From the NCBI GenBank assembly GCA_041651155.1, contig JBAZJU010000001.1, forward strand, positions 167,619 through 231,618: a DNA stretch of 64,000 nt, in the 5' to 3' direction. How positions within the stretch are numbered: position 1 is the stretch's first letter; each line of letters begins with the position of its first letter. Below the pieces are notes generated by a model that was not told the origin of the DNA, did no database searches, and saw only the letters and a program-made list of their open reading frames with translations. The position numbers were made by a program, and so were the translations under genes. Shown piece by piece: positions 11,770-61,844 of the stretch. This stretch comes from Patescibacteria group bacterium. Its GTDB lineage: Bacteria > Patescibacteriota > Patescibacteriia > CAIXNZ01.

Positions 11770-12906
11770 TTAGAGGGTAATGGGTGTACCGCGAGTGTCT
11801 CCTCCCTGGTTGACACAGTTCGAGGTAGTGTTGATACCCTGGATTTCCATTCCTATCCAGTAATCAGCACCAATCGTGAAGTCAATGTAGTGTACGAGCT
11901 GGGTCGTGCAGAGAGTTGATCCTCCGGTTGAGGCTATCACATCTGCATAGACGCCGTAGCCATGTTCATAAGTTCCTGGAGGAGCAGTTACATCGCGGGC
12001 CGGATGGTGGATAGTCAGCCATGCGCTTTGTCCGCTCAGCACAGAAAAGAAGGTTTCGGAATAGGAGAGAGTCGGTACATCCCATAAGAGCCTTTGCCAT
12101 ATGCCGCCGGGCGTGGGTGTCCTCCAGTACGAAGTCTGAATTCGGATGTCTTCACCAGCTTGCAACCCTGTATACGGTATGATGGGATCATCGAAAGTGA
12201 GAGGGTCATAGACATTATTGCCATTGGTATCGCCAGTCACTCGGACTCGCAAACGATAAAGCGTTTCAGTGCAGGTCGGATTGCTGCCCACGGTAACCGC
12301 ATTGTTTTCGTCTACGTTTATGATAAAACACGCTACGGGATATTGGTCTAGCGCAGTCCCTAAGGTTTTATACCCTGTAAGCAAAACCGAGTTAAGCCTG
12401 ATATTGTCAACCCGATTCTGGTTGGCGAGACTGTATCCGATTGACAGGTAGGTGTTTTTCGGCACGGTAATGGAGACACTGAGTACTCCACCTACGACTT
12501 GTGCGGAATAATTGATGCCGTGCATCGGGTCCGTATTCTGTCTGTTTACAATGCTTGAGTAAATGTAGATCTCTGCGGGAGGCGAGCCTGGCGTTACCAA
12601 ATTGGCACTGTATTTCTGGATTGTTTCCTTGTAAGTCTTTCCGTTGATAACCACATTTTTTACCGCAACAGTGCCATCGTCGACCAACTTGGAGGTTAAG
12701 GTAGATCCCTCAGGAATCGGGATTTCGAATTTGACAGCGCATCCGCCGTTTGCGTCACAGGTAATCGGGGTCGGAGGGACTACGGGTGTGTCAAACGCAC
12801 CGACGCTGGGACTCGCCTGGTGGGTGCCGCAACCGAGCAAGCTTAGAAAGCCGAGGCTGAGCACTATCAAAATGATAGCCATCCAGTTAAAGGTTTTCCC
12901 TTTCAT
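11770..12906 (-). CDS. secreted lipoprotein, function unknown
   Basis: Shine-Dalgarno aaggaga precedes the ATG at 12906; signal peptide with LLGC lipobox. Confidence 0.45.
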   Translation of the reverse strand: MKGKTFNWMAIILIVLSLGFLSLLGCGTHQASPSVGAFDTPVVPPTPITCDANGGCAVKFEIPIPEGSTLTSKLVDDGTVAVKNVVINGKTYKETIQKYSANLVTPGSPPAEIYIYSSIVNRQNTDPMHGINYSAQVVGGVLSVSITVPKNTYLSIGYSLANQNRVDNIRLNSVLLTGYKTLGTALDQYPVACFIINVDENNAVTVGSNPTCTETLYRLRVRVTGDTNGNNVYDPLTFDDPIIPYTGLQAGEDIRIQTSYWRTPTPGGIWQRLLWDVPTLSYSETFFSVLSGQSAWLTIHHPARDVTAPPGTYEHGYGVYADVIASTGGSTLCTTQLVHYIDFTIGADYWIGMEIQGINTTSNCVNQGGDTRGTPITL

Positions 12907-13246
12907 TTCTTCTCTCCTTTTGGGTATTTTTAGCCTGACCAAGCTTGCTACTGCGAAGCTTTAGCCATGACTTTTATCTCGTTGGTTTTTCGGTTGACCT
13001 TTTCCCTTGATTTTTTGCTATTTTAAATCAATTTATAAAAAGAACATCAAAGCAACTGCCAATTATTTGGTCAGGTGCTCTTAAAGATTATCTCACATTA
13101 ACATAACTGTAAAATTTTGTCAAGGTCTCTTGTCAAGACTTGAAATTTAGGCGAATTTTAGAGGAAAAATTACAGGTTGACAAAATAATAAAATAATAGC
13201 CTTATTTTTTTTGTTTTTATTGTATTATCATGGTAAAATATAACGT

Positions 13247-29896: not shown

Positions 29897-29930
29897 AAAG
29901 AACATGCCACTCTTGGCATGTTCTTTCTCT
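29897..29930. terminator. hairpin gaacatgccactcttggcatgttc (shares the tgccactcttggca core with the hairpin at 30229-30262)
   Basis: A-run upstream and T-rich downstream, so bidirectional terminator-like. Confidence 0.5.
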
Positions 29931-29932
29931 TG

Positions 29933-30164
29933 TGACCCGGCCCCAAAGGGGAGCCTTCGGCTTTGGGGTAGGATGTTTCGTTTTTGATTTATTTATGACC
30001 CGGCCCCAAAGGGGAGCCTTCGGCTCTGGGGTAGGATATTTCGTTTTTGATTTATTTGTGACCCGGCCCCAAAGGGGAGCCTTCGGCTCTGGGGTAGGAT
30101 ATTTCGTTTTTGATTTATTTGTGACCCGGCCCCAAAGGGGAGCCTTCGGCTCTGGGGTTCGAAC
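29933..30164 (-). repeat. tandem array of 4 x 63 bp: decayed tRNA 3'-end remnants each carrying GC hairpins (gagccttcggctc, ccccaaagggg)
   Basis: Units start at 29933, 29996, 30059 and 30122. On the minus strand each ends CCGGGTCA, identical to the tRNA-Lys acceptor 3' end; unit 4 additionally retains a GTTCGAA T-loop. Confidence 0.8.
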
Positions 30165-30265: not shown

Positions 30266-30338
30266 TGACCCGGCTGGGGTTCGAACCCAGGACCCTCTGC
30301 TTAAAAGGCAGATGCTCTACCAGCTGAGCTACCGAGTC
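30266..30338 (-). tRNA. tRNA-Lys (anticodon UUU)
   Basis: Minus-strand sequence GACTCGGTAGCTCAGCTGGTAGAGCATCTGCCTTTTAAGCAGAGGGTCCTGGGTTCGAACCCCAGCCGGGTCA folds as a canonical cloverleaf; no CCA encoded. Confidence 0.9.
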
Positions 30339-45683: not shown

Positions 45684-45701
45684 TGTATTTATTTTTTATT
45701 G

Positions 45702-45773
<72 letters not shown>

Positions 45774-45982
45774 ATGGTGATTAATGACAAATGATCAATA
45801 ATCAATAATCAAACAATTTTTAAATTCAAAATTCAAATGTTTAAACTTTGTGTAATTAGTAATATTTATTCAACAAAAATAAAAAAAGAACAAGGTTCTA
45901 TTATTGATATTATAGGGTAAAAATTAGGGAAAGTCAATGGTAGTTGGCGTTTTTTCATATTAAGAATTCATTAAATTTTCAA

Positions 45983-46011
45983 TTGACTTAGCGAGTTTTT
46001 GGGCGTAAAAT
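45983..46011 (+). promoter_or_regulatory. sigma70-like promoter (TTGACT-17-TAAAAT) upstream of the R-M cluster
   Basis: Hexamers and spacing read directly. Confidence 0.45.
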
Positions 46012-46274
46012 GAGATTAAATAAATAAAATTTTAAGTTCTAAAATATGGACAAAAAACGCATTATGCAAAATAAAACTGATGTTGAGCTGGCCAATGATA
46101 AATTGAAGAAAAGCGCTGGCTAAGCTGGCGGCTAATTTTAAAGTTGTTAACGGCTGGCAAAAAAGTGAGCAGGATATTGAAACCAGCTTTACTTTCGAAG
46201 TAAAAAACTATAAAATATAAGTACAATATATACTCCGTTAGGTTCAATTTGGAGCCTATAAAGCTTATCTTATA

Positions 46275-47156
46275 ATGGCTAAAAAAAATAAAAAATTTAC
46301 ATTTATAGACCTATTCGCTGGTATAGGCGGTTTTCATTTTGCTTTCCATAATTCAGGAGCAGAATGTGTTTTTGCAAGTGAGTGGGATAAATATGCAAGG
46401 CAAACTTATGAACGTAATTTCGCTAAAATTCAGCCCGAACTTTTTAAATCAGGAAATTTCGCAGGTGATATTACTAAGGTGAAACCAAAAAATATCCCCG
46501 ACTTTGATATAATTTGCGGCGGATTTCCGTGTCAGCCTTTCAGTCAGGCAGGATTCAAAAGAGGTTTTGAAGATAATAGAGGAAGCCTTTTTTTTCATAT
46601 AGCGGAATTAATCAGGAATAAGAAACCCAAGGCATTTTTTCTTGAAAATGTAAGGCATCTTTTTAAACATGATGACGGAAAAACATTTTCTGCAATAAAA
46701 AACGTAATTGAAAAAGATTTGGGTTATTCTTTTTATTATAAAATTGTTAAGGGCACAGATTTTAATGTTCCTCAACACAGGCCGCGTTTGTTTATGGTCG
46801 GTTTTAGAAATAAAAAAATCCCCTTTAATTTTCCTGAGCCGAAGAAACTAACAAAAACAATGTCTGATATCTTCGGTGCGCCATGTGAAAAAAATGTCGG
46901 TTATACTTTAAGAGTAGGCGGTCGGGGATCTGCTATAACCGATAGGCGAAATTGGGATTCTTATAAGGTAAACAGTAAAATTGTAAGATTAGGAGTTAAA
47001 GAAGGTAAAAAAATGATGGGGTTGCCTTACAATTTTGTTTTTCCCGTTTCTGATGCACAAGCAATGAAACAACTGGGAAATGCCGTTGTCGTACCTGCAA
47101 TAAGCGCTGTTGCACAAGAGATTATAAAGACATTAAATAAATATTATGCCGATTAA
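46275..47156 (+). CDS. DNA (cytosine-5)-methyltransferase
   Basis: Motif I FAGIGGF, IV GGFPCQPFSQAG, VI ENVRHL, VIII QHRPRLFMVGF, X LGNAVVVP; a short target-recognition domain implies a short recognition site. Confidence 0.9.
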   Translation: MAKKNKKFTFIDLFAGIGGFHFAFHNSGAECVFASEWDKYARQTYERNFAKIQPELFKSGNFAGDITKVKPKNIPDFDIICGGFPCQPFSQAGFKRGFEDNRGSLFFHIAELIRNKKPKAFFLENVRHLFKHDDGKTFSAIKNVIEKDLGYSFYYKIVKGTDFNVPQHRPRLFMVGFRNKKIPFNFPEPKKLTKTMSDIFGAPCEKNVGYTLRVGGRGSAITDRRNWDSYKVNSKIVRLGVKEGKKMMGLPYNFVFPVSDAQAMKQLGNAVVVPAISAVAQEIIKTLNKYYAD

Positions 47157-48234
47157 AGGTAATAAGGGGGAATGGAGCGAATTTTACGCTTTTATTAAAA
47201 TTTTAGCGGATAAATATTTACACGCCGCCGATGAAGACCTGAACGTTCTTGAGCAGGTCTTTTATCCCGTTTATAAAATAATCAGGGAAGAGGCTGCAGC
47301 AGGTAAAATAGAATTTGATATCAAGGCAGATACAGATAATATAAAAATTACGGACTCTTCTAATAATATTATGTTGGTTCATGTTACTGATCTTGATAAA
47401 AAGGCAAAGAAATTGTTTTCAGTCATAAAAAATTCAGATAAAAGGACATTCTCCATCCCTTTGGGAGCAGAGTTGATGGAAAAATTAAAATGTACTCAGA
47501 TAAAGGCCAATAGCGGAAGAAAATCAGATATAAAATTGTTAATACATGATTTTAGGTATGAACAGGATACAGAAGTAGGATTTAGCATTAAATCTCTGGT
47601 AGGCTCTCCCGCAACTCTTTTAAATGCGTCTGGATCTACTAATTTTGTTTATCGGGTTGAAAATATTTCCGATGTTGATGTTAAAGCAATTAATAATATT
47701 AAAACCAGGTCAAAAATAAAAGATCGATTGCAGGCAATTATTACGCGACATGGAAAGTTGTCTTTCACATCTTTAACATCTGATATTTTTGAACATAATT
47801 TAAGAAATATTGATACGATTTTACCTGAAATTTTATCCAATTTATTGTTGGCAAATTTTATGGGTCACGGTTCCTTACTTACTGAGTTAACTGAATATTT
47901 AGGAGCCAACGTTAATGAGTTAAGGGGATTTAGTCTTGATGAGACGGGATATAAAATTAAGTTAAAAAATTTTTTACATAATATAGCCTTGGGAATGATG
48001 CCTAATACTGAATGGGACGGATTATTGCAGGTTCATGGAGGTTATATAATAGTTAAAGAAAACGGTGAAATCGTATGTTATCATATTTTTAACCAGGATG
48101 AATTTCAGAATTATTTATTTAAAAATACGAGGCTGGATACGCCAAGTACTACCAGGCACGGATTTGGTGAAATATACAAAGAAGGAGAAAATTATTTTAT
48201 TAAACTTAATCTGCAGATTAGGTTTAATCACTAG
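47146..48234 (+). CDS. putative type II restriction endonuclease; HpaII-like is my from-memory guess at the family
   Basis: 11-nt overlap with the methyltransferase stop, followed by vsr; the N-terminus NKGEWSEFYAF resembles the HpaII REase family as I recall it. Confidence 0.5.
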   Translation: MPIKGNKGEWSEFYAFIKILADKYLHAADEDLNVLEQVFYPVYKIIREEAAAGKIEFDIKADTDNIKITDSSNNIMLVHVTDLDKKAKKLFSVIKNSDKRTFSIPLGAELMEKLKCTQIKANSGRKSDIKLLIHDFRYEQDTEVGFSIKSLVGSPATLLNASGSTNFVYRVENISDVDVKAINNIKTRSKIKDRLQAIITRHGKLSFTSLTSDIFEHNLRNIDTILPEILSNLLLANFMGHGSLLTELTEYLGANVNELRGFSLDETGYKIKLKNFLHNIALGMMPNTEWDGLLQVHGGYIIVKENGEIVCYHIFNQDEFQNYLFKNTRLDTPSTTRHGFGEIYKEGENYFIKLNLQIRFNH

Positions 48235-48237
48235 TTT

Positions 48238-48651
48238 ATGACTGATCGTATTACAAAAGAACAAAGATCCAGGAATATGTCCGCAGTTAAAGCCAAGGGA
48301 AACAAAACAACTGAAATTAAAGTAGTTAAATATTTTAAAAATAAAGGGATAACGGGCTGGAGAAGACATAATAAGAAAATATTCGGTAATCCGGACTTTG
48401 TCTTTTTAAAGGACAAAGTCGTTATATTTATTGACGGATGTTTTTGGCATGGTTGTCCTTACCATTATCATGTCCCGAAAACAAACAAAAAATTCTGGAA
48501 TGCAAAAATAAAGGCTAATAAAAAAAGGGGTAAAATCGTGAACAGCGTTTTAAGAAAAAACAATTGGACGGTTGTGAGAGTCTGGGAACATCAGCTAAAA
48601 AAAGATCAGCCATTTTATCTTGAGAAAATAAGAAAACTTTTACTAAAATAA
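48238..48651 (+). CDS. vsr: very-short-patch-repair endonuclease Vsr
   Basis: TKEQRSRNMSAVKAKGNKTTE..FVFLKDKVVIFIDGCFWHGCP. Confidence 0.85.
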   Translation: MTDRITKEQRSRNMSAVKAKGNKTTEIKVVKYFKNKGITGWRRHNKKIFGNPDFVFLKDKVVIFIDGCFWHGCPYHYHVPKTNKKFWNAKIKANKKRGKIVNSVLRKNNWTVVRVWEHQLKKDQPFYLEKIRKLLLK

Positions 48652-48711
48652 GTTGTATAAATTGGGATGAGGGATTAAATTAGTTGAGGATAAATAAAAT
48701 AATGGTTATTA

Positions 48712-48742
48712 AGCGCCCCGCTCAGCATTACGGGGCATTTTT
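48712..48742. terminator. intrinsic terminator after vsr
   Basis: gccccg ctcagcatta cggggc followed by attttt. Confidence 0.65.
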
Positions 48743-48756
48743 AGATTAAAAATTGA

Positions 48757-48933
48757 TTAAATTTTTGCTTGACTTGGGAGCATGTAAAGAATAAAATTGA
48801 AGTAATGTTATTAAACAAAACTCCTGAATCCCGCGAGAAAAACAAGACCAGGATTGAGGCAGTGGATTATGAGATTGATAAGATGGTAAGTAAACTATAT
48901 GGTTTGAGTGAGAAAGATATGAAGATTATCTAG
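48757..48933 (+). pseudogene. C-terminal remnant of an N6-adenine methyltransferase with TaqI_C-type tail (type IIG / PglX / Eco57I-like)
   Basis: ..REKNKTRIEAVDYEIDKMVSKLYGLSEKDMKII* matches the conserved C-terminal pattern IDxLVYxLYGLTEEEIxIIE; no upstream catalytic domain is present. Confidence 0.45.
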
Positions 48934-48944
48934 GGAAAATTTTT

Positions 48945-51209
48945 ATGAAAATAAACTTAAATCAGAAGCAAAGAATAATTGTGGCAATTATATATCTAGC
49001 CATACTGTCTTTAATTTTTTATCTACTTGGTGGAAACTTAAAGCAATTAGCTTGGGACAGTAGTTATGACTCTAGTATTTGGTTTTATGCTGGAGCGTTT
49101 ATGATAATACTTGGGACTTATATCGTTGAACCATATTTCACTAAGCCTTCCGACGCAATAGCTAATTCAACGGCTATTCTTATAGCATTGTTTGGGCTAT
49201 CTGCAAAGCAAGATCTATTGGGATATTCTTTTATATTTTACTATGCTGTTAGCATCTTGATTCTGAGCATATTAACCATTTTCCTAAAAGACTCAAAGAA
49301 TATATTCTGGTTAAAATTTTCAAAGGTGACTTATTGGATTGTTGAAACATTCGGAACCTCAAAAGTAATTTTTTCTATTATATATTTATCTGCAAGTTAT
49401 TCATATTTCGCACAACAAAATAAAATAATCCCATTCATTAGTATCGTAGCTTTTTGGATTTGCTTAACTTTTTTTGATGTTATCAGTTTAATTGTTGAAA
49501 ACTTTTCAAGATTTATCAATTTAATTAAAAACAAACCTGGGGAGGAATTAGGCCAGGCTATTGGCTGTGAAAATCCGCTTCTTTATAAGGTGGAAATAGA
49601 TTATTTAAAGCATAAACCATGTGCGATAAAATATGGCGATTTAGTTGCCTTGGAAACATCTATCAATGTTGGCTCAATAGGTATGGTTGTAGATATACAG
49701 TATCTCTTAAACAAAAGATGGTTAAGTATATATCTTTTGCAAGACGAAAATGGCGACATTCTAGAAATAAATTTAAAAGATAAGAAATTGATAACGGAGC
49801 CAAAATCAATTTTTACAAAAGAAAATCTCGTATATCTTTTAGACATCTCTACAATTACAGATGAATCTCTGAAAACAAAAATTGGAAGTAACCCTCTATA
49901 CAAAAATAAAGAGCAATTTATTGGGTATGTTTCCAGCGGTTCAAACATAAATACACTAAATTTTTCAATTATCAGAGAAACAAACAAGCTCGAGCAGAAA
50001 ATTAGTGAAGGGGTGATTCTAAAAACTTTAATTTACGGACAAGAAACGCTTTATCAAGTTATAAATGGCAATGCAAAGGAAGAACAGCTTGAGAATTTTG
50101 ATCGACATGGTTTCATAATCGGCATCGCTAGAAAATTAGGCAAATACAAAAAAGACACTAAGGATTTAGATGTAAGTAAATGGATGCCTTCGAATTTCTC
50201 CCCACTTTTCTATGCATTTTCTGGTAGTGTTTCGGAAACGAGAGTAAAAGAAATTGCACAGAATTCTATTGGTCGTCTTCCTGATACGGATTTAGAAATT
50301 CCACTTAAAGATCCAAATGCTATTGTTACTCACAATACTGCGATTTTAGGAATTTTAGGAATAGGTAAGTCCTGCCTCACCTTTGAGATTATTAAGAAAA
50401 TAATTGCAAATACAGAAAGTAAGGTTATTTGTCTTGATATAACAAACGAATATTTTGATGAGCTTGTTGCTTATGGATGTGAACCCCAGATACTACCTGA
50501 CGTAGAGATCCAACTGGTATTAAATCCTAATTATGAAGCAATAAATAAAGACATTTACAAAGGCGGTAATCATGCCCAGTTTAGACAAAAAATAACTGAG
50601 TTGATTAAAACATTTTTTGACGGAGCAAATAAGCTATTGATTATAAATCCTGAGGTCTACGATGTTAGTAAGCAAACAAATGATGTAAAAGCAAAAAAAA
50701 TTGGTCCTGGCCCAAATGACTGGCAGGATCAAGCACCAATGGTAGATCTTACTTTGGTTGAGAAAACCAGAATTATAGCAGAAGTAATTTTAGAATATTC
50801 AAAAGGGAGGGGAAAATCCCAAAGTGCTAGATGTCTTTTAGTTTTTGAGGAAGCTCATTCCCTTGTTCCTGAATGGAACTCAGTCGCAAGCGAAGGTGAT
50901 AAAAGTGCTACAAATGGAACAGCTAAAGTTATATTGCAAGGTAGAAAATATGGCTTGGGAAGCATGGTTGTCACTCAAAGAACTGCGAATGTAAGTAAAA
51001 GCATCCTCAACCAATGCAACACAATTTTTGCTTTACGAGTTTTCGATGACACAGGAAAGGGATTTTTGGAAAATTATATTGGCAAGGATTATGCCGATAC
51101 TCTGGCAACTCTTGAGGAGAGACACGCTATTGCTATTGGCAAAGGGTTAAAATTAAAACAACCCGTTATAATCCAATTAAATAATAGAGAGGATATTATA
51201 GAGAATTAG
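48945..51209 (+). CDS. multi-TM membrane-anchored HerA/FtsK-like P-loop ATPase (DUF87-type)
   Basis: ~190-aa N-terminal region with 5-6 hydrophobic helices; Walker A AILGILGIGKS; Walker B / HerA-type LLVFEEAHSLVP; VVTQRTANVS. Confidence 0.6.
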   Translation: MKINLNQKQRIIVAIIYLAILSLIFYLLGGNLKQLAWDSSYDSSIWFYAGAFMIILGTYIVEPYFTKPSDAIANSTAILIALFGLSAKQDLLGYSFIFYYAVSILILSILTIFLKDSKNIFWLKFSKVTYWIVETFGTSKVIFSIIYLSASYSYFAQQNKIIPFISIVAFWICLTFFDVISLIVENFSRFINLIKNKPGEELGQAIGCENPLLYKVEIDYLKHKPCAIKYGDLVALETSINVGSIGMVVDIQYLLNKRWLSIYLLQDENGDILEINLKDKKLITEPKSIFTKENLVYLLDISTITDESLKTKIGSNPLYKNKEQFIGYVSSGSNINTLNFSIIRETNKLEQKISEGVILKTLIYGQETLYQVINGNAKEEQLENFDRHGFIIGIARKLGKYKKDTKDLDVSKWMPSNFSPLFYAFSGSVSETRVKEIAQNSIGRLPDTDLEIPLKDPNAIVTHNTAILGILGIGKSCLTFEIIKKIIANTESKVICLDITNEYFDELVAYGCEPQILPDVEIQLVLNPNYEAINKDIYKGGNHAQFRQKITELIKTFFDGANKLLIINPEVYDVSKQTNDVKAKKIGPGPNDWQDQAPMVDLTLVEKTRIIAEVILEYSKGRGKSQSARCLLVFEEAHSLVPEWNSVASEGDKSATNGTAKVILQGRKYGLGSMVVTQRTANVSKSILNQCNTIFALRVFDDTGKGFLENYIGKDYADTLATLEERHAIAIGKGLKLKQPVIIQLNNREDIIEN

Positions 51210-51253
51210 TATCTTTTGAAAGCAAGGTTAGATACATAAGAAATTCTTTTATT

Positions 51254-52642
51254 ATGAAACAAAAAGATGCTCTAGAAATTTTAAAGATGGGGTATAATGT
51301 TTACTTAACCGGAGCGGCCGGCAGCGGCAAAACTTATTTATTAAATAAGTACATTGAATATTTAAGGGGAAATAATATTCCCGTGGCCGTTACGGCTTCT
51401 ACTGGTATTGCAGCTACTCATATGAATGGACGTACTGTTCATTCGTGGTGTGGTATGGGTATAAACATGAAAATGAATAAGAGCCAGATTAGCGAATTAG
51501 CTGATAAAGACTATATCTATAGTAATATTACCAATACCAAGGTATTGATTATTGATGAAATTTCAATGCTTCATGCATCACAACTGGACTTGGTTAACAA
51601 TATCTGTAAAAATTTAAGAGATAATGATATTCCATTCGGCGGTATGCAGGTTATACTATGCGGTGATTTTTTTCAGTTACCTCCAGTTAGCAAGGGGAAT
51701 GATCTTGGAAAATTTATTACAGAATCAGATATCTGGAGTGAAATGGACTTAAAAGTTTGTTATTTATCTGAACAATACCGGCAAGATGACCATCAATTTA
51801 TTAAAATTTTAAAAAATGTAAGAGCCAATCAGGTCGATCAAGAAGCCTTAAAATTACTTAAAAGTAGAATAAACGCTGAAATCAAAACTGATTTACAAAT
51901 AACAAAATTATATTCGCACAATATCGATGTAGATCGAATTAATGATATGGAGCTGAATAAGATTTCCCAGGAACCGAAAGAATTTGAGATGCATAGTGAA
52001 GGCAAGAATCAGAAAATAATTGAAACCCTGAAGGGCTCCTGCCTGGCTCCAGAAAAATTAATATTGAAAAAAGGGGCTATGGTCATGTTTGTAAGGAATA
52101 ATTTTTCCAATGGTTATGTAAATGGAACCTTAGGTAAAGTAATTAACTTTGACGATGATACCGGCTGTCCTATCATTAAAACTTTTAAGGGCGATAGGAT
52201 TATTGCTTATCCCGAAACATGGAAAATTGAAGAAAATTATAATGTACTCGCCCAAATAAGCCAAATACCTCTTCGATTGGCATGGGCAATAACAATTCAC
52301 AAAAGTCAAGGTATGAGTTTGGATGTAGCTGAAATTGATTTAAGCAAATCTTTCGCTTACGGCATGGGATATGTTGCATTATCTAGAGTAAAATCTTTAT
52401 CAGGAATAATCCTTAAAGGTTTGAATGATATGGCTTTGAAAATTGATGAAAATATTTTAAGAATTGATAAAGATTTGATGGAAATGTCCCAAAATTTTTT
52501 AAAAGAATATCTATGTATGTCAAAGAAAGGTATTAAACAGATTCAGGATAATTTTATTAAAGAAAATGCCGAGATACCAGGGGATTGTGAAAATGAATAT
52601 TGTGATTGTGACGAAGTAAAGTTAGAAGATATCCCTTTTTAA
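51254..52642 (+). CDS. Pif1/RecD-family SF1B helicase
   Basis: Walker A LTGAAGSGKT; VTASTGIAATHMNGRTVHSW; LIIDEISML; ILCGDFFQLPPV; C-terminal ITIHKSQGMSLD. Confidence 0.75.
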   Translation: MKQKDALEILKMGYNVYLTGAAGSGKTYLLNKYIEYLRGNNIPVAVTASTGIAATHMNGRTVHSWCGMGINMKMNKSQISELADKDYIYSNITNTKVLIIDEISMLHASQLDLVNNICKNLRDNDIPFGGMQVILCGDFFQLPPVSKGNDLGKFITESDIWSEMDLKVCYLSEQYRQDDHQFIKILKNVRANQVDQEALKLLKSRINAEIKTDLQITKLYSHNIDVDRINDMELNKISQEPKEFEMHSEGKNQKIIETLKGSCLAPEKLILKKGAMVMFVRNNFSNGYVNGTLGKVINFDDDTGCPIIKTFKGDRIIAYPETWKIEENYNVLAQISQIPLRLAWAITIHKSQGMSLDVAEIDLSKSFAYGMGYVALSRVKSLSGIILKGLNDMALKIDENILRIDKDLMEMSQNFLKEYLCMSKKGIKQIQDNFIKENAEIPGDCENEYCDCDEVKLEDIPF

Positions 52643-52954
52643 AATATTTATCCTTACCAAATCCGATTTTTTAAAATACGCCTGATGTTACTGCTATTTG
52701 CACCCTATCAGTATTTAGACTTAAAATCTGACCGAATTTACACACAAATATTTAGTTTAGAAAAAATCGTCCCGTGCGCGGGGCGTTTTTTATTCTTGAC
52801 AAAATTAAATATCTATGAGAAGATTTCAATCAACAGCGTCTTAGCTTAAGTTGGCGGACAGCATCACCATTTTATGGCATTAAAAATTATAGAATGCCTT
52901 AATTACAATGGAGATGCATCCCCAACACAAAGCGTTTCTAGGCCGCTTTTTTAT

Positions 52955-61214: not shown

Positions 61215-61844
61215 ATGGCCTATATATTTTTAGACGAAAGCGGTGATTTAGGGTTTAGTAGCCGTTCTAGCCAATGGTTTATTTTAACCATTGTTTTAAC
61301 CAATAAGCATAGAAAAATTGAGAAATGCGTCAAGAAAGTACATAAGGGATTAAAAAAGAAGTATAAGAAAATCAAAGAACTTCATGCTTATCATTCTGAT
61401 GCAACAACTAAAAAGAGGATATTAAAATTGCTTTCAGACGCAGACGATTTAAAAGTATTATGTATTATTTTAAATAAAAAGAAAGTCTACACGGACCTAA
61501 TAAATCAAAAAAGTTTTCTTTACAATTATACTGCCAATATTTTATTGGAGAGACTGCATAACAGGAATTTAATTAAAACAAATGAAAGAATCAATATTTT
61601 TATTGACCAGAGAGAAACAAATAAATTTTTAAAGAAAAATTTCGAGGACTATTTGAGGAGTAATTTAGTTAAAAGAGGGAATAATGATTTTGATATAAAA
61701 ATCAAACCTTCGCACACGGAAAAATGCCTTCAGGCCGTTGATTTTATATCTTGGGCAATATTCAGGAAATATGAGCAGGGTGAATACGAATATTATGAAA
61801 TTATAAAGAATAAAATTATTGAAGAAAACTTGCTTTTTCCATAA
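61215..61844 (+). CDS. DUF3800-family protein
   Basis: N-terminal IFLDESGDLGF is the DUF3800 signature. Confidence 0.55.
   Translation: MAYIFLDESGDLGFSSRSSQWFILTIVLTNKHRKIEKCVKKVHKGLKKKYKKIKELHAYHSDATTKKRILKLLSDADDLKVLCIILNKKKVYTDLINQKSFLYNYTANILLERLHNRNLIKTNERINIFIDQRETNKFLKKNFEDYLRSNLVKRGNNDFDIKIKPSHTEKCLQAVDFISWAIFRKYEQGEYEYYEIIKNKIIEENLLFP

What the first reader, a model, noticed from the sequence alone, without database searches (positions are those of the whole stretch)
46275..48651. Complete type II R-M module with dedicated Vsr: C5-MTase, overlapping putative REase (family unconfirmed), very-short-patch repair endonuclease
The methyltransferase has all C5 motifs (FAGIGG, PCQ, ENV, QxRxR, GNAV) and a very short target-recognition region, implying a 4-bp site.
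The next gene overlaps it by 11 nt; its N-terminus reminds me of the HpaII endonuclease family, and the native HpaII system is also known to include a vsr-like gene, which fits the third gene here.
A σ70-like promoter (TTGACT-17-TAAAAT) lies 260 bp upstream, followed by a 25-codon ORF (46046-46123) of unknown meaning.
R-M systems appear uncommon in CPR/Patescibacteria genomes, so this is a notable accessory feature and supports the defence-island reading of the block.
Basis: partly seen in the sequence, partly recalled or inferred. Interest (0 to 1): 0.5.

Follow-up and report, generated by a model that had tools for sequence, protein, structure and literature searches.

The report
HpaII-type restriction-modification operon with Vsr
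This is an ordinary three-gene bacterial defence cassette (a DNA cytosine methylase, an HpaII-family restriction enzyme that probably cuts CCGG, and a Vsr repair nickase), common in tiny "candidate phyla" bacteria and already named this way in public annotation.

Summary
Three co-oriented ORFs lie at the stated coordinates: M 46275-47156, R 47146-48234 (11-nt overlap with M) and V 48238-48651.

- **Families:** M is a C5 DNA methyltransferase with all catalytic motifs. V is a Vsr-family protein.
- **Existing annotation:** NCBI already gives identical proteins these names, in a Patescibacteria MAG.
- **Distribution:** HpaII-family REase genes were confirmed at 574 genomic stretches in a species-representative genome collection. 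M sits directly upstream of R in nearly all of the 80 loci examined.
- **M class:** The 293-aa M belongs to a conserved compact class (about 290-300 aa). It lacks roughly 50 target-recognition residues found in the 350-430-aa partners of the same REase family. This class occurs mostly in Patescibacteria, in the order M-R-V.

- R-M systems are not rare in CPR.
- CCGG is not depleted in the window (162 observed, 156 expected), although the cassette itself has 1 site against 6.3 expected.
- The 25-codon ORF lies in a ~220-nt leader segment that the closest relative lacks.
- The Vsr carries Gly where a catalytic-site Asp (E. coli D97) stands in 116 of 120 homologues.

**Verdict:** a new member of a known kind; low interest.

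The parts
45952..45989 (+). Left copy of a 38-nt imperfect direct repeat (82% identical) that brackets the cassette. It includes the -35 hexamer of the M promoter.
   Evidence: the repeat finder family D1. The pairwise alignment shows that similarity runs from about 45946 to 46011. The core ATTAAATTTTNNNTTGACTT occurs exactly only at these two places in the 64 kb.
45983..46011 (+). Sigma-70-like promoter candidate, TTGACT-17-TAAAAT, for the M-R-V operon.
   Evidence: Consensus scan, 10 of 12 matches. The stretch from 45984 onward aligns with the first 45 nt of the closest relative L081 at 80% identity. In L081 it lies about 55-60 nt upstream of the M start. No transcription data are available.
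46037..46258 (+). Roughly 220-nt leader segment that is absent from the closest relative. It contains the 25-codon ORF (46046-46123) and a second, weaker promoter-like site (46188-46216).
   Evidence: Gap-tolerant alignment of window 45975-46300 with L081 1-110. There is no Rfam match. The RNA fold is not better than shuffles, z -0.97. A translated frame has no Pfam match. The segment is unique within the window.
46275..47156 (+). M: compact C5 DNA cytosine methyltransferase (293 aa). The catalytic Cys is C86 in the PCQ motif. The short target-recognition region carries the conserved loop GYTLRVGGRGS-I-DRRNWD (residues about 209-228).
   Evidence: PF00145 E 4.1e-80 and TIGR00675 273.7 bits. 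PADLOC MTase_II 8.5e-98. The closest solved structure by sequence is M.HhaI, E 1.3e-65. The AF2 model has pLDDT 86 and TM 0.79 to M.HhaI. The motifs and the TRD loop are invariant in 35 relatives.
47146..48234 (+). R: HpaII-family type II restriction endonuclease (362 aa). The candidate catalytic motif is S127-D128-X18-S147-I148-K149.
48238..48651 (+). V: Vsr-family very-short-patch repair endonuclease (137 aa), with Gly98 (codon GGT, 48529-48531) at the position of E. coli Vsr Asp97.
   Evidence: PF03852 E 2e-20 and TIGR00632 119.2 bits against a cut-off of 97.85. E. coli Vsr 1cw0, E 7e-15. E26, D53 and H71 are conserved. Position 98 is D in 116 of 120 homologues and G only here. The codon was read.
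48715..48744 (+). Terminator-like hairpin after vsr: GCCCCG, a 10-nt loop, CGGGGC, then ATTTTTAG.
   Evidence: Read directly from the sequence. The scan tool did not list it because its loop limit is 8 nt. Inference only.
48738..48775 (+). Right copy of the flanking direct repeat. It carries a second TTGACT-17-TAAAAT (48769-48797) in front of the next genes.

Best explanation
This is a type IIP restriction-modification operon of the HpaII kind, carried on a horizontally mobile three-gene cassette in a Patescibacteria chromosome.

**How it most likely works**
- M is a compact S-adenosylmethionine-dependent C5 cytosine methyltransferase. It methylates a cytosine in CCGG on the host DNA.
- R is an HpaII-family PD-(D/E)XK endonuclease. 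It cuts unmethylated CCGG in incoming DNA.
- V is a Vsr-type nickase. It would incise 5' of the T in T:G mismatches produced when 5-methylcytosine deaminates at the methylated site, so that repair restores C and the site is not lost by mutation.
- The three genes are probably co-transcribed from a promoter at 45983-46011 and end at a hairpin after vsr. The 11-nt M/R overlap and the 3-nt R/V gap suggest translational coupling.

**Shown here:** family membership of all three proteins, intact catalytic motifs in M, conserved invariant residues in R, conserved gene order and overlap in relatives, and varied genomic context.

**Inferred:** CCGG as the site (from the REase family and from site counts), which cytosine is methylated, enzymatic activity, co-transcription, and whether this particular Vsr (Gly at the Asp97 position) still works.
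For: - **Family assignments.** M, R and V all pass curated cut-offs. Public annotation of the identical proteins agrees.
- **M.** All five catalytic motifs and the short TRD loop are invariant in 35 relatives of 67-87% identity. The confident AF2 model is closest to M.HhaI.
- **Synteny.** M lies directly upstream of R, co-oriented and usually overlapping, in nearly all of the 80 loci examined. The three closest relatives examined have the same M-R-V order and the same 11-nt overlap.
- **Site.** The cassette has 1 CCGG against 6.3 expected, the lowest observed/expected ratio of the 16 palindromic 4-mers in the cassette. Pooled relatives give CCGG observed/expected of 0.50 in cassettes and 0.68 and 0.51 in their flanks.
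- **Mobility.** None of the window's neighbouring genes recurs next to the module in the 80 loci. Family members sit on small, mostly mobilizable plasmids. The block has lower GC and lies next to tRNA-Gln.
Against: - No enzymology or methylome data exist for this cassette or for any compact-M relative, so CCGG is an inference.
- CCGG is not under-represented in the host window (162 against 155.8; rank 172 of 256 tetramers).
- In pooled relatives GGCC is as depleted as CCGG, so that signal is not specific.
- The M target-recognition region differs greatly from that of the long M.HpaII-like partners. Identical specificity is therefore not guaranteed.
- Vsr has Gly at a catalytic-site Asp.
- The promoter and terminator are consensus or visual matches only.
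Confidence: 0.85

Rival explanations
1. The architecture is the same, but the specificity differs. The compact M, with its reduced target-recognition region, could recognise a shorter or different sequence (for example CG or CCG, which would still cover CCGG). Alternatively, the pair as a whole could target a site other than CCGG.
For: - Compact M lacks about 35 plus about 12 residues of the recognition region present in the long partners of the same REase family.
- In the catalytic domain it is closest to M.HhaI, a GCGC enzyme.
- R is only 35-38% identical to plasmid-borne HpaII-family members.
- The host window shows no CCGG avoidance.
Against: - The loop shared by both M classes (T-L/I-x-V-G-G-x-G) is retained.
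- The compact region is nearly invariant across relatives, which argues for a defined specificity.
- Orthologous REases pair with both M classes.
- CCGG has the lowest observed/expected ratio of the 16 palindromic 4-mers inside the cassette.
- GCGC is not depleted (0.91).
Confidence: 0.1
2. The cassette is a recently acquired or decaying system that is no longer fully functional. Vsr would be catalytically impaired, and restriction might be silent.
For: - Gly98 replaces an Asp that is D in 116 of 120 homologues. That Asp is listed among three invariant catalytic-site residues of Vsr (PMC2677866).
- A segment of about 220 nt separates the conserved promoter from M, compared with the closest relative.
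- There is no CCGG avoidance in the host DNA, although the cassette itself avoids the site.
Against: - M and R are full length, with all invariant residues intact.
- No frameshifts or stop codons are present.
- An R gene without a working M would be lethal, so an intact pair argues for function.
- The single G-for-A difference could be an assembly or population variant.
- The effect of Asp-to-Gly at this position has not been measured.
Confidence: 0.12

Closest known systems
HpaII restriction-modification system of Haemophilus parainfluenzae (M.HpaII, R.HpaII and an adjacent vsr-like ORF; Kulakauskas et al. 1994, Gene 142:9, cited in PMC2441816; the paper itself is not held in the library)
   Same: - R belongs to the same Pfam family over its full length.
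- A C5 methyltransferase lies immediately upstream and co-oriented.
- A Vsr-type gene is part of the locus.
- The predicted site is CCGG.
   Different: - M here is 293 aa and lacks about 50 residues of the recognition region found in the 350-430-aa M partners of this REase family.
- Vsr is downstream (M-R-V). In the long-M relatives sampled here it is upstream (V-M-R) or fused to M.
- That the H. parainfluenzae locus itself has a vsr-like ORF is my recollection of that paper and was not verified here.
M.HhaI (GCGC C5 methyltransferase; PDB 1MHT and 10MH series)
   Same: It is the closest solved structure both by sequence (E 1.3e-65) and by fold (TM 0.79). The catalytic domain and motifs are the same.
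   Different: - M.HhaI has 327 aa and a recognition region about 40 residues longer.
- It recognises a different site and has a different REase partner.
MspI, HinP1I and HhaI restriction endonucleases (monomeric PD-(D/E)XK enzymes cutting CCGG or GCGC)
   Same: - The candidate motif SD-X18-SxK sits on a beta hairpin, as does the SD-X11-EAK motif of HhaI (PMC7026639).
- MspI is an isoschizomer of HpaII.
   Different: - No sequence similarity is detectable.
- R is about 100 residues longer.
- Whether HpaII-family enzymes act as monomers was not tested.
E. coli Dcm-Vsr pair
   Same: A C5 methyltransferase gene is linked to a Vsr nickase that would counter 5mC deamination at the methylated site. 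E26, D53 and H71 correspond to E. coli E25, D51 and H69.
   Different: - Here a cognate restriction enzyme sits between the two genes.
- The zinc-site pattern is that of the local subgroup: a C, H, C arrangement, with His at the Cys117 position.
- The Asp97 equivalent is Gly.

Membership tests
C5 DNA cytosine methyltransferase (PF00145 / TIGR00675) | Profile score above the curated cut-off | tested here: met
   PF00145 scores 270.1 bits against a cut-off of 22. TIGR00675 scores 273.7 against 100.65.
C5 DNA cytosine methyltransferase (PF00145 / TIGR00675) | Motifs I (FxGxG), IV (PCQ, catalytic Cys), VI (ENV), VIII (QxRxR) and X (GNxV) | tested here: met
   FAGIGG, GFPCQ (C86), ENV (E124), QHRPR and GNAV are present and invariant in 35 relatives.
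C5 DNA cytosine methyltransferase (PF00145 / TIGR00675) | Two-domain fold with a small DNA-recognition domain between motifs VIII and IX | tested here: met
   The AF2 model has pLDDT 86 and TM 0.79 to M.HhaI. The recognition region is unusually short, about 50 residues, but conserved.
C5 DNA cytosine methyltransferase (PF00145 / TIGR00675) | Methylation of a defined DNA site (CCGG predicted) | not testable with these tools
   This needs methylome or protection assays.
HpaII-family restriction endonuclease (PF09561) | Full-length profile match above the gathering score | tested here: met
   369.1 bits against 25, covering model positions 1-359 of 359. PADLOC REase_II 1.7e-102.
HpaII-family restriction endonuclease (PF09561) | Family-invariant residues present | tested here: met
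   All 57 invariant columns of a 30-sequence alignment include the window protein, among them the GEWSE segment, K126, D128, D135 and GFSIKS.
HpaII-family restriction endonuclease (PF09561) | Adjacent cognate C5 methyltransferase | tested here: met
   M overlaps R by 11 nt. The same layout is seen in nearly all of the 80 loci examined.
HpaII-family restriction endonuclease (PF09561) | PD-(D/E)XK nuclease fold (assignment by Steczkiewicz et al. 2012) | tested here: inconclusive
   [not shown]
HpaII-family restriction endonuclease (PF09561) | Cleavage of unmethylated C^CGG | not testable with these tools
   Only indirect evidence exists: the cassette has 1 CCGG against 6.3 expected, and relatives show observed/expected of 0.5-0.7.
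Vsr very-short-patch repair endonuclease (PF03852 / TIGR00632) | Profile score above the curated cut-off | tested here: met
   PF03852 scores 72.9 bits against 27. TIGR00632 scores 119.2 against 97.85.
Vsr very-short-patch repair endonuclease (PF03852 / TIGR00632) | Catalytic-site residues equivalent to E. coli Asp51 and His69 | tested here: met
   D53 and H71 are invariant in 120 homologues.
Vsr very-short-patch repair endonuclease (PF03852 / TIGR00632) | Catalytic-site residue equivalent to E. coli Asp97 | tested here: not met
   The window has Gly98. The position is D in 116 of 120 homologues, A in 2, H in 1, and G only here. Asp97 is listed as an invariant catalytic-site residue in PMC2677866.
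Vsr very-short-patch repair endonuclease (PF03852 / TIGR00632) | Nicking 5' of T in T:G mismatches in the methylase's sequence context | not testable with these tools
   This needs a biochemical assay.
Classical long-M HpaII-type locus layout (V-M-R) | Vsr gene upstream of, or fused to, a 350-430-aa methyltransferase | tested here: not met
   The window is M-R-V with a 293-aa M. This matches the compact-M subgroup seen mostly in Patescibacteria.

The most novel reading that the evidence does not exclude
The ~293-aa methyltransferase may represent a distinct class, enriched in Patescibacteria, of minimal sequence-specific C5 DNA methyltransferases.
- It is shorter than every bacterial C5 enzyme with a solved structure listed.
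- Its recognition region of about 50 residues would read CCGG through a compact element (GGRGS-x3-DRRNWD).
- Alternatively, it may have relaxed specificity that still covers CCGG.

Separately, the HpaII REase family appears structurally related to its isoschizomer MspI (and to HinP1I and HhaI). If so, this classic isoschizomer pair would be divergent relatives and not independent inventions.
Probability: 0.25. Interest if true: 0.4.

Novelty: new member of a known kind. Interest (0 to 1): 0.2.

Why it matters
As a genome feature it matters little. It is one more HpaII-type R-M cassette, already annotated as such, in a lineage where this very cassette is frequent.

Three by-products may interest R-M specialists:
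- A conserved compact class of C5 methyltransferase (about 290-300 aa) partners with HpaII-family endonucleases. It could serve as a minimal scaffold for studying or engineering DNA recognition.
- A confident model of an HpaII-family enzyme has MspI, R.HhaI and HinP1I as its nearest solved folds. In 2008 this family was singled out as lacking any fold assignment (PMC2441816).
- The data correct the idea that restriction-modification is unusual in CPR bacteria.

Tried and rejected
1. **CCGG avoidance in the window.** This is not a refutation, because host sites are protected by methylation. The cassette itself and the relatives do show depletion.
2. **Leader as a gene relic.** One frame of the leader (46110-46225) recalled a pterin-4a-carbinolamine dehydratase N-terminus. 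Pfam gave no match, so I dropped the idea.
3. **RNA element in the leader.** Rfam finds only the neighbouring tRNA. The fold is no better than shuffles (z -0.97).
4. **Integration scars from tRNA-Gln.** I found no copy of the tRNA end. The only notable repeat is the promoter-containing 38-nt pair flanking the cassette.
5. **Shared synteny with relatives.** None of the window's flanking genes recurs in the 80 loci.
7. **Sequence search of R against the PDB.** No hit, even at E <= 1.
8. **Literature.** The original HpaII system paper (PubMed 7514149) and the HinP1I structure papers are not held. The statement that the H. parainfluenzae locus has a vsr-like ORF, and the HinP1I SD-X18-QxK motif, therefore rest on my memory.
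9. **Model coordinates.** They are not exposed to scripts. I could not measure whether E9/E12, D128, S147 and K149 cluster in space.
Full report
**1. What is in the sequence**

Three co-oriented ORFs occupy 46275-48651: 46275-47156 (293 aa), 47146-48234 (362 aa) and 48238-48651 (137 aa). The first two overlap by 11 nt (ATGCCGATTAA). The third starts 3 nt after the stop of the second. Upstream lies a tRNA-Gln on the minus strand (45701-45773), followed by a 500-nt intergenic region. After the third gene there is a GC-rich hairpin with a T-run (48715-48744; read).

**2. What the three proteins are**

- **M.** It matches PF00145 (E 4.1e-80) and TIGR00675 (273.7 bits), and type II MTase models in PADLOC.
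- **R.** It matches Pfam RE_HpaII over the entire model (residues 6-360 against positions 1-359 of 359, E 3.7e-110). It also matches the PADLOC type II REase model (E 1.7e-102).
- **V.** It matches PF03852 and passes the TIGR00632 (vsr) cut-off. E. coli Vsr is its closest solved relative.
- **Existing annotation.** Identical proteins are already in public databases. They come from one 348,259-bp contig of a "Patescibacteria group bacterium" MAG. They are named DNA cytosine methyltransferase, HpaII family restriction endonuclease and very short patch repair endonuclease.

**3. The methyltransferase is a compact but conserved variant**

All catalytic motifs are present and invariant across 35 relatives of 67-87% identity: FAGIGG, PCQ with Cys86, ENV, QHRPR and GNAV.

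The closest solved enzyme is M.HhaI (E 1.3e-65). The region between motif VIII and motif IX is about 40 residues shorter than in M.HhaI.

The best 120 database relatives are nearly all 290-300 aa, so the short form is a family trait and not a deletion in this genome. Its recognition region is among the most conserved parts of the protein: GYTLRVGGRGSxIxDRRNWD, with T211, R213, G215, G216, G218, S219, D223, R224, N226 and W227 invariant.

I aligned it with the 350-430-aa methyltransferases that sit next to HpaII-family endonucleases in other phyla. The compact class lacks a segment of about 35 residues (consensus KYYLS...KGNGFGYEI) and a second segment of about 12 residues. It keeps the shared T-(L/I)-x-V-G-G-x-G loop.

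An AlphaFold2 model is confident (pLDDT 86, pTM 0.87). Low confidence is limited to the N-terminus, the catalytic loop (89-102) and the GGRG loop (214-217). The best PDB matches are M.HhaI structures, at TM 0.79.

**4. The endonuclease**

No solved structure is detectable by sequence. Orlowski and Bujnicki (2008) could not assign a fold to R.HpaII and recommended it as a crystallography target (PMC2441816). Steczkiewicz et al. (2012) placed PF09561 in the PD-(D/E)XK superfamily (PMC3424549).

Among family-invariant residues, S127-D128 precedes the predicted strand 129-135, and S147-I148-K149 ends the next strand, 140-150. This geometry matches the SD-X11-EAK hairpin described for HhaI. From my memory, it also matches the SD-X18-QxK motif of HinP1I. 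I therefore propose SD128-X18-S147-x-K149 as the catalytic motif.

**5. The Vsr**

E26, D53, H71 and the Cys/His pattern of its subgroup are conserved. The position equivalent to E. coli Asp97 is Gly98 (codon GGT at 48529-48531). In 120 homologues this column is D in 116, A in 2, H in 1, and G only in the window protein. The nearest relative (78% identical) has D.

Dassa et al. list Asp51, His69 and Asp97 as the invariant catalytic-site residues of Vsr (PMC2677866). The gene is thus full length and clearly a Vsr, but this copy may be impaired. A single-base assembly or population variant cannot be excluded.

**6. Comparative context**

The best 80 loci include many Patescibacteria. They also include Bacteroidota, Gastranaerophilales and others.

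In those 80 loci a C5 methyltransferase lies directly upstream of R, co-oriented and usually overlapping, in nearly every case where the contig extends that far. Two layouts appear:
- **Compact M (290-305 aa, 425-560 bits to the window M).** This is mostly in Patescibacteria. Vsr is downstream (M-R-V) in about half of these loci.
- **Long M (348-444 aa, about 220-240 bits).** Vsr is upstream (V-M-R), or fused to M to give 589-590-aa proteins, or absent.

The three closest relatives examined (82-87% M identity) all show M-R-V with the same 11-nt overlap.

None of the window's neighbouring genes is found beside the module in any of the 80 loci. Family members occur on small, mostly mobilizable plasmids of Acinetobacter, Francisella and Lactococcus. 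The cassette is therefore horizontally mobile.

**7. Site prediction and the depletion test**

- **In the 64-kb window** CCGG is not depleted: 162 observed against 155.8 expected from a maximal-order Markov model, ranking 172 of 256 tetramers. CTGG and CCAG are also unremarkable (1.09).
- **In the cassette itself** there is a single CCGG (48391) against 6.3 expected. This is the lowest observed/expected ratio of the 16 palindromic tetramers there.
- **In the wider low-GC block 45784-52700** there are 5 against 10.9 expected.
- **Pooled over 27 compact-M relatives**, CCGG observed/expected is 0.50 in cassettes and 0.68 in flanks. In 39 long-M relatives it is 0.60 and 0.51. GGCC and some other sites are similarly low, so the signal supports CCGG without being specific to it.

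HpaII cuts CCGG only when neither cytosine is methylated (PMC12907096). Methylation of either C would therefore protect, and the modified base cannot be inferred here.

**8. Regulatory region**

As a pattern the promoter is not above chance (16 sites against 14.5 +/- 3.6). However, the stretch from 45984 (window 45984-46028) aligns at 80% identity with the first 45 nt of the closest relative's contig (L081, 81% identical over the module). In L081 it lies about 55-60 nt upstream of M. A gap-tolerant alignment shows that about 220 nt of the window leader (roughly 46037-46258), including the 25-codon ORF, has no counterpart in L081.

That segment has no Rfam match, no unusual fold, no Pfam match in a translated frame and no second copy in the window. 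The small ORF is therefore not a conserved component of the system.

A 38-nt imperfect direct repeat (82% identical) brackets the cassette, at 45952-45989 and 48738-48775. Each copy carries a TTGACT-17-TAAAAT, and the core occurs exactly only at these two places in the window. It may mark how the cassette was inserted or duplicated. I could not resolve this.

**9. The "rare in CPR" and "defence island" claims**

The homologue lists and loci are rich in Patescibacteria. A 2025 study describes CPR as largely lacking CRISPR and relying instead on R-M (PMC12455944). A 2026 preprint counts 4,737 restriction enzymes in 12,552 CPR genomes. The rarity claim is not supported.

The neighbourhood gives only modest support to an island. 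Upstream genes are housekeeping: ThiI, DivIC, a PpiC-type isomerase, FtsE/FtsX and EamA. Downstream come a 54-aa ORF, a 754-aa HerA-like ATPase and a Pif1-like helicase. MsrA, a GNAT acetyltransferase and TspO follow. GC is 0.325 in 45784-52700, against 0.367 and 0.377 on either side.

**10. Verdict**

This is a complete HpaII-type M-R-V cassette of a compact-M subgroup that is common in Patescibacteria and correctly named in public annotation. It is a new member of a known kind and of low interest as a finding. Three points are worth keeping: the minimal methyltransferase class, the structural link of the HpaII family to MspI, HinP1I and HhaI, and the Asp-to-Gly substitution in this Vsr.

Noticed in passing
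window 48769-48933: A 54-aa ORF between vsr and the HerA-like gene. It has weak similarity to the extreme C-terminus of type IIG restriction-methyltransferases (PADLOC E 2.5e-4 and 2.4e-3). It may be a gene remnant. It is preceded by the second TTGACT-17-TAAAAT.
   Followed up: no
window 48945-52642: A 754-aa protein pairs a hydrophobic N-terminal region with a HerA/DUF87-type ATPase. Its hits to anti-phage HerA models are only partial. A 462-aa Pif1-like helicase follows. No SIR2 or DUF4297 partner was seen. This may be a defence pair of unclear type.
   Followed up: partly
whole window: TCGA is strongly under-represented (29 observed against 85 expected). GGCC (216 against 306) and CTAG (43 against 66) are also low, whereas CCGG is not. 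This hints at past or present TCGA- and GGCC-specific restriction pressure elsewhere in this genome.
   Followed up: no
L018, L020, L021, L040, L050, L067 (M genes of 554-559 aa); L051, L060 (589-590 aa): In some relatives the compact methyltransferase is fused to an N-terminal RadC/JAB-like domain (HNHPSG motif; PF04002 is also recorded on P0240). In two long-M relatives Vsr is fused to the methyltransferase.
   Followed up: partly
L082 1-5750 and 9611-10429: In one close relative the M-R-V cassette sits beside genes typical of filamentous-phage-like elements (Zot and a REP_ORF2-G2P replication protein). A DUF3800 protein follows. A DUF3800 protein also occurs in the window at 61215-61844.
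   Followed up: no
window 45952-45989 and 48738-48775: An imperfect 38-nt direct repeat brackets the cassette, and each copy contains a promoter-like TTGACT-17-TAAAAT. Its origin is unresolved: it could be an insertion scar, a duplicated promoter, or a shared island promoter.
   Followed up: partly
window 29930-30158: A tandem repeat of a 63-nt unit, 3.6 copies at 97% identity. Each unit holds a GC-rich hairpin (CCCCAAAGGGGAGCCTTCGGCTCTGGGG) followed by a T-rich tail. It lies next to tRNA-Lys (30266-30338).
   Followed up: partly
window 12001-13000: This 1-kb bin has GC 0.49, against about 0.36 for the rest of the window. It was not examined.
   Followed up: no
window 45909-45937 (minus strand): The best promoter match in the region (TTGACT-17-TATAAT, 11 of 12) lies on the minus strand. 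It points toward tRNA-Gln (45773-45701).
   Followed up: no
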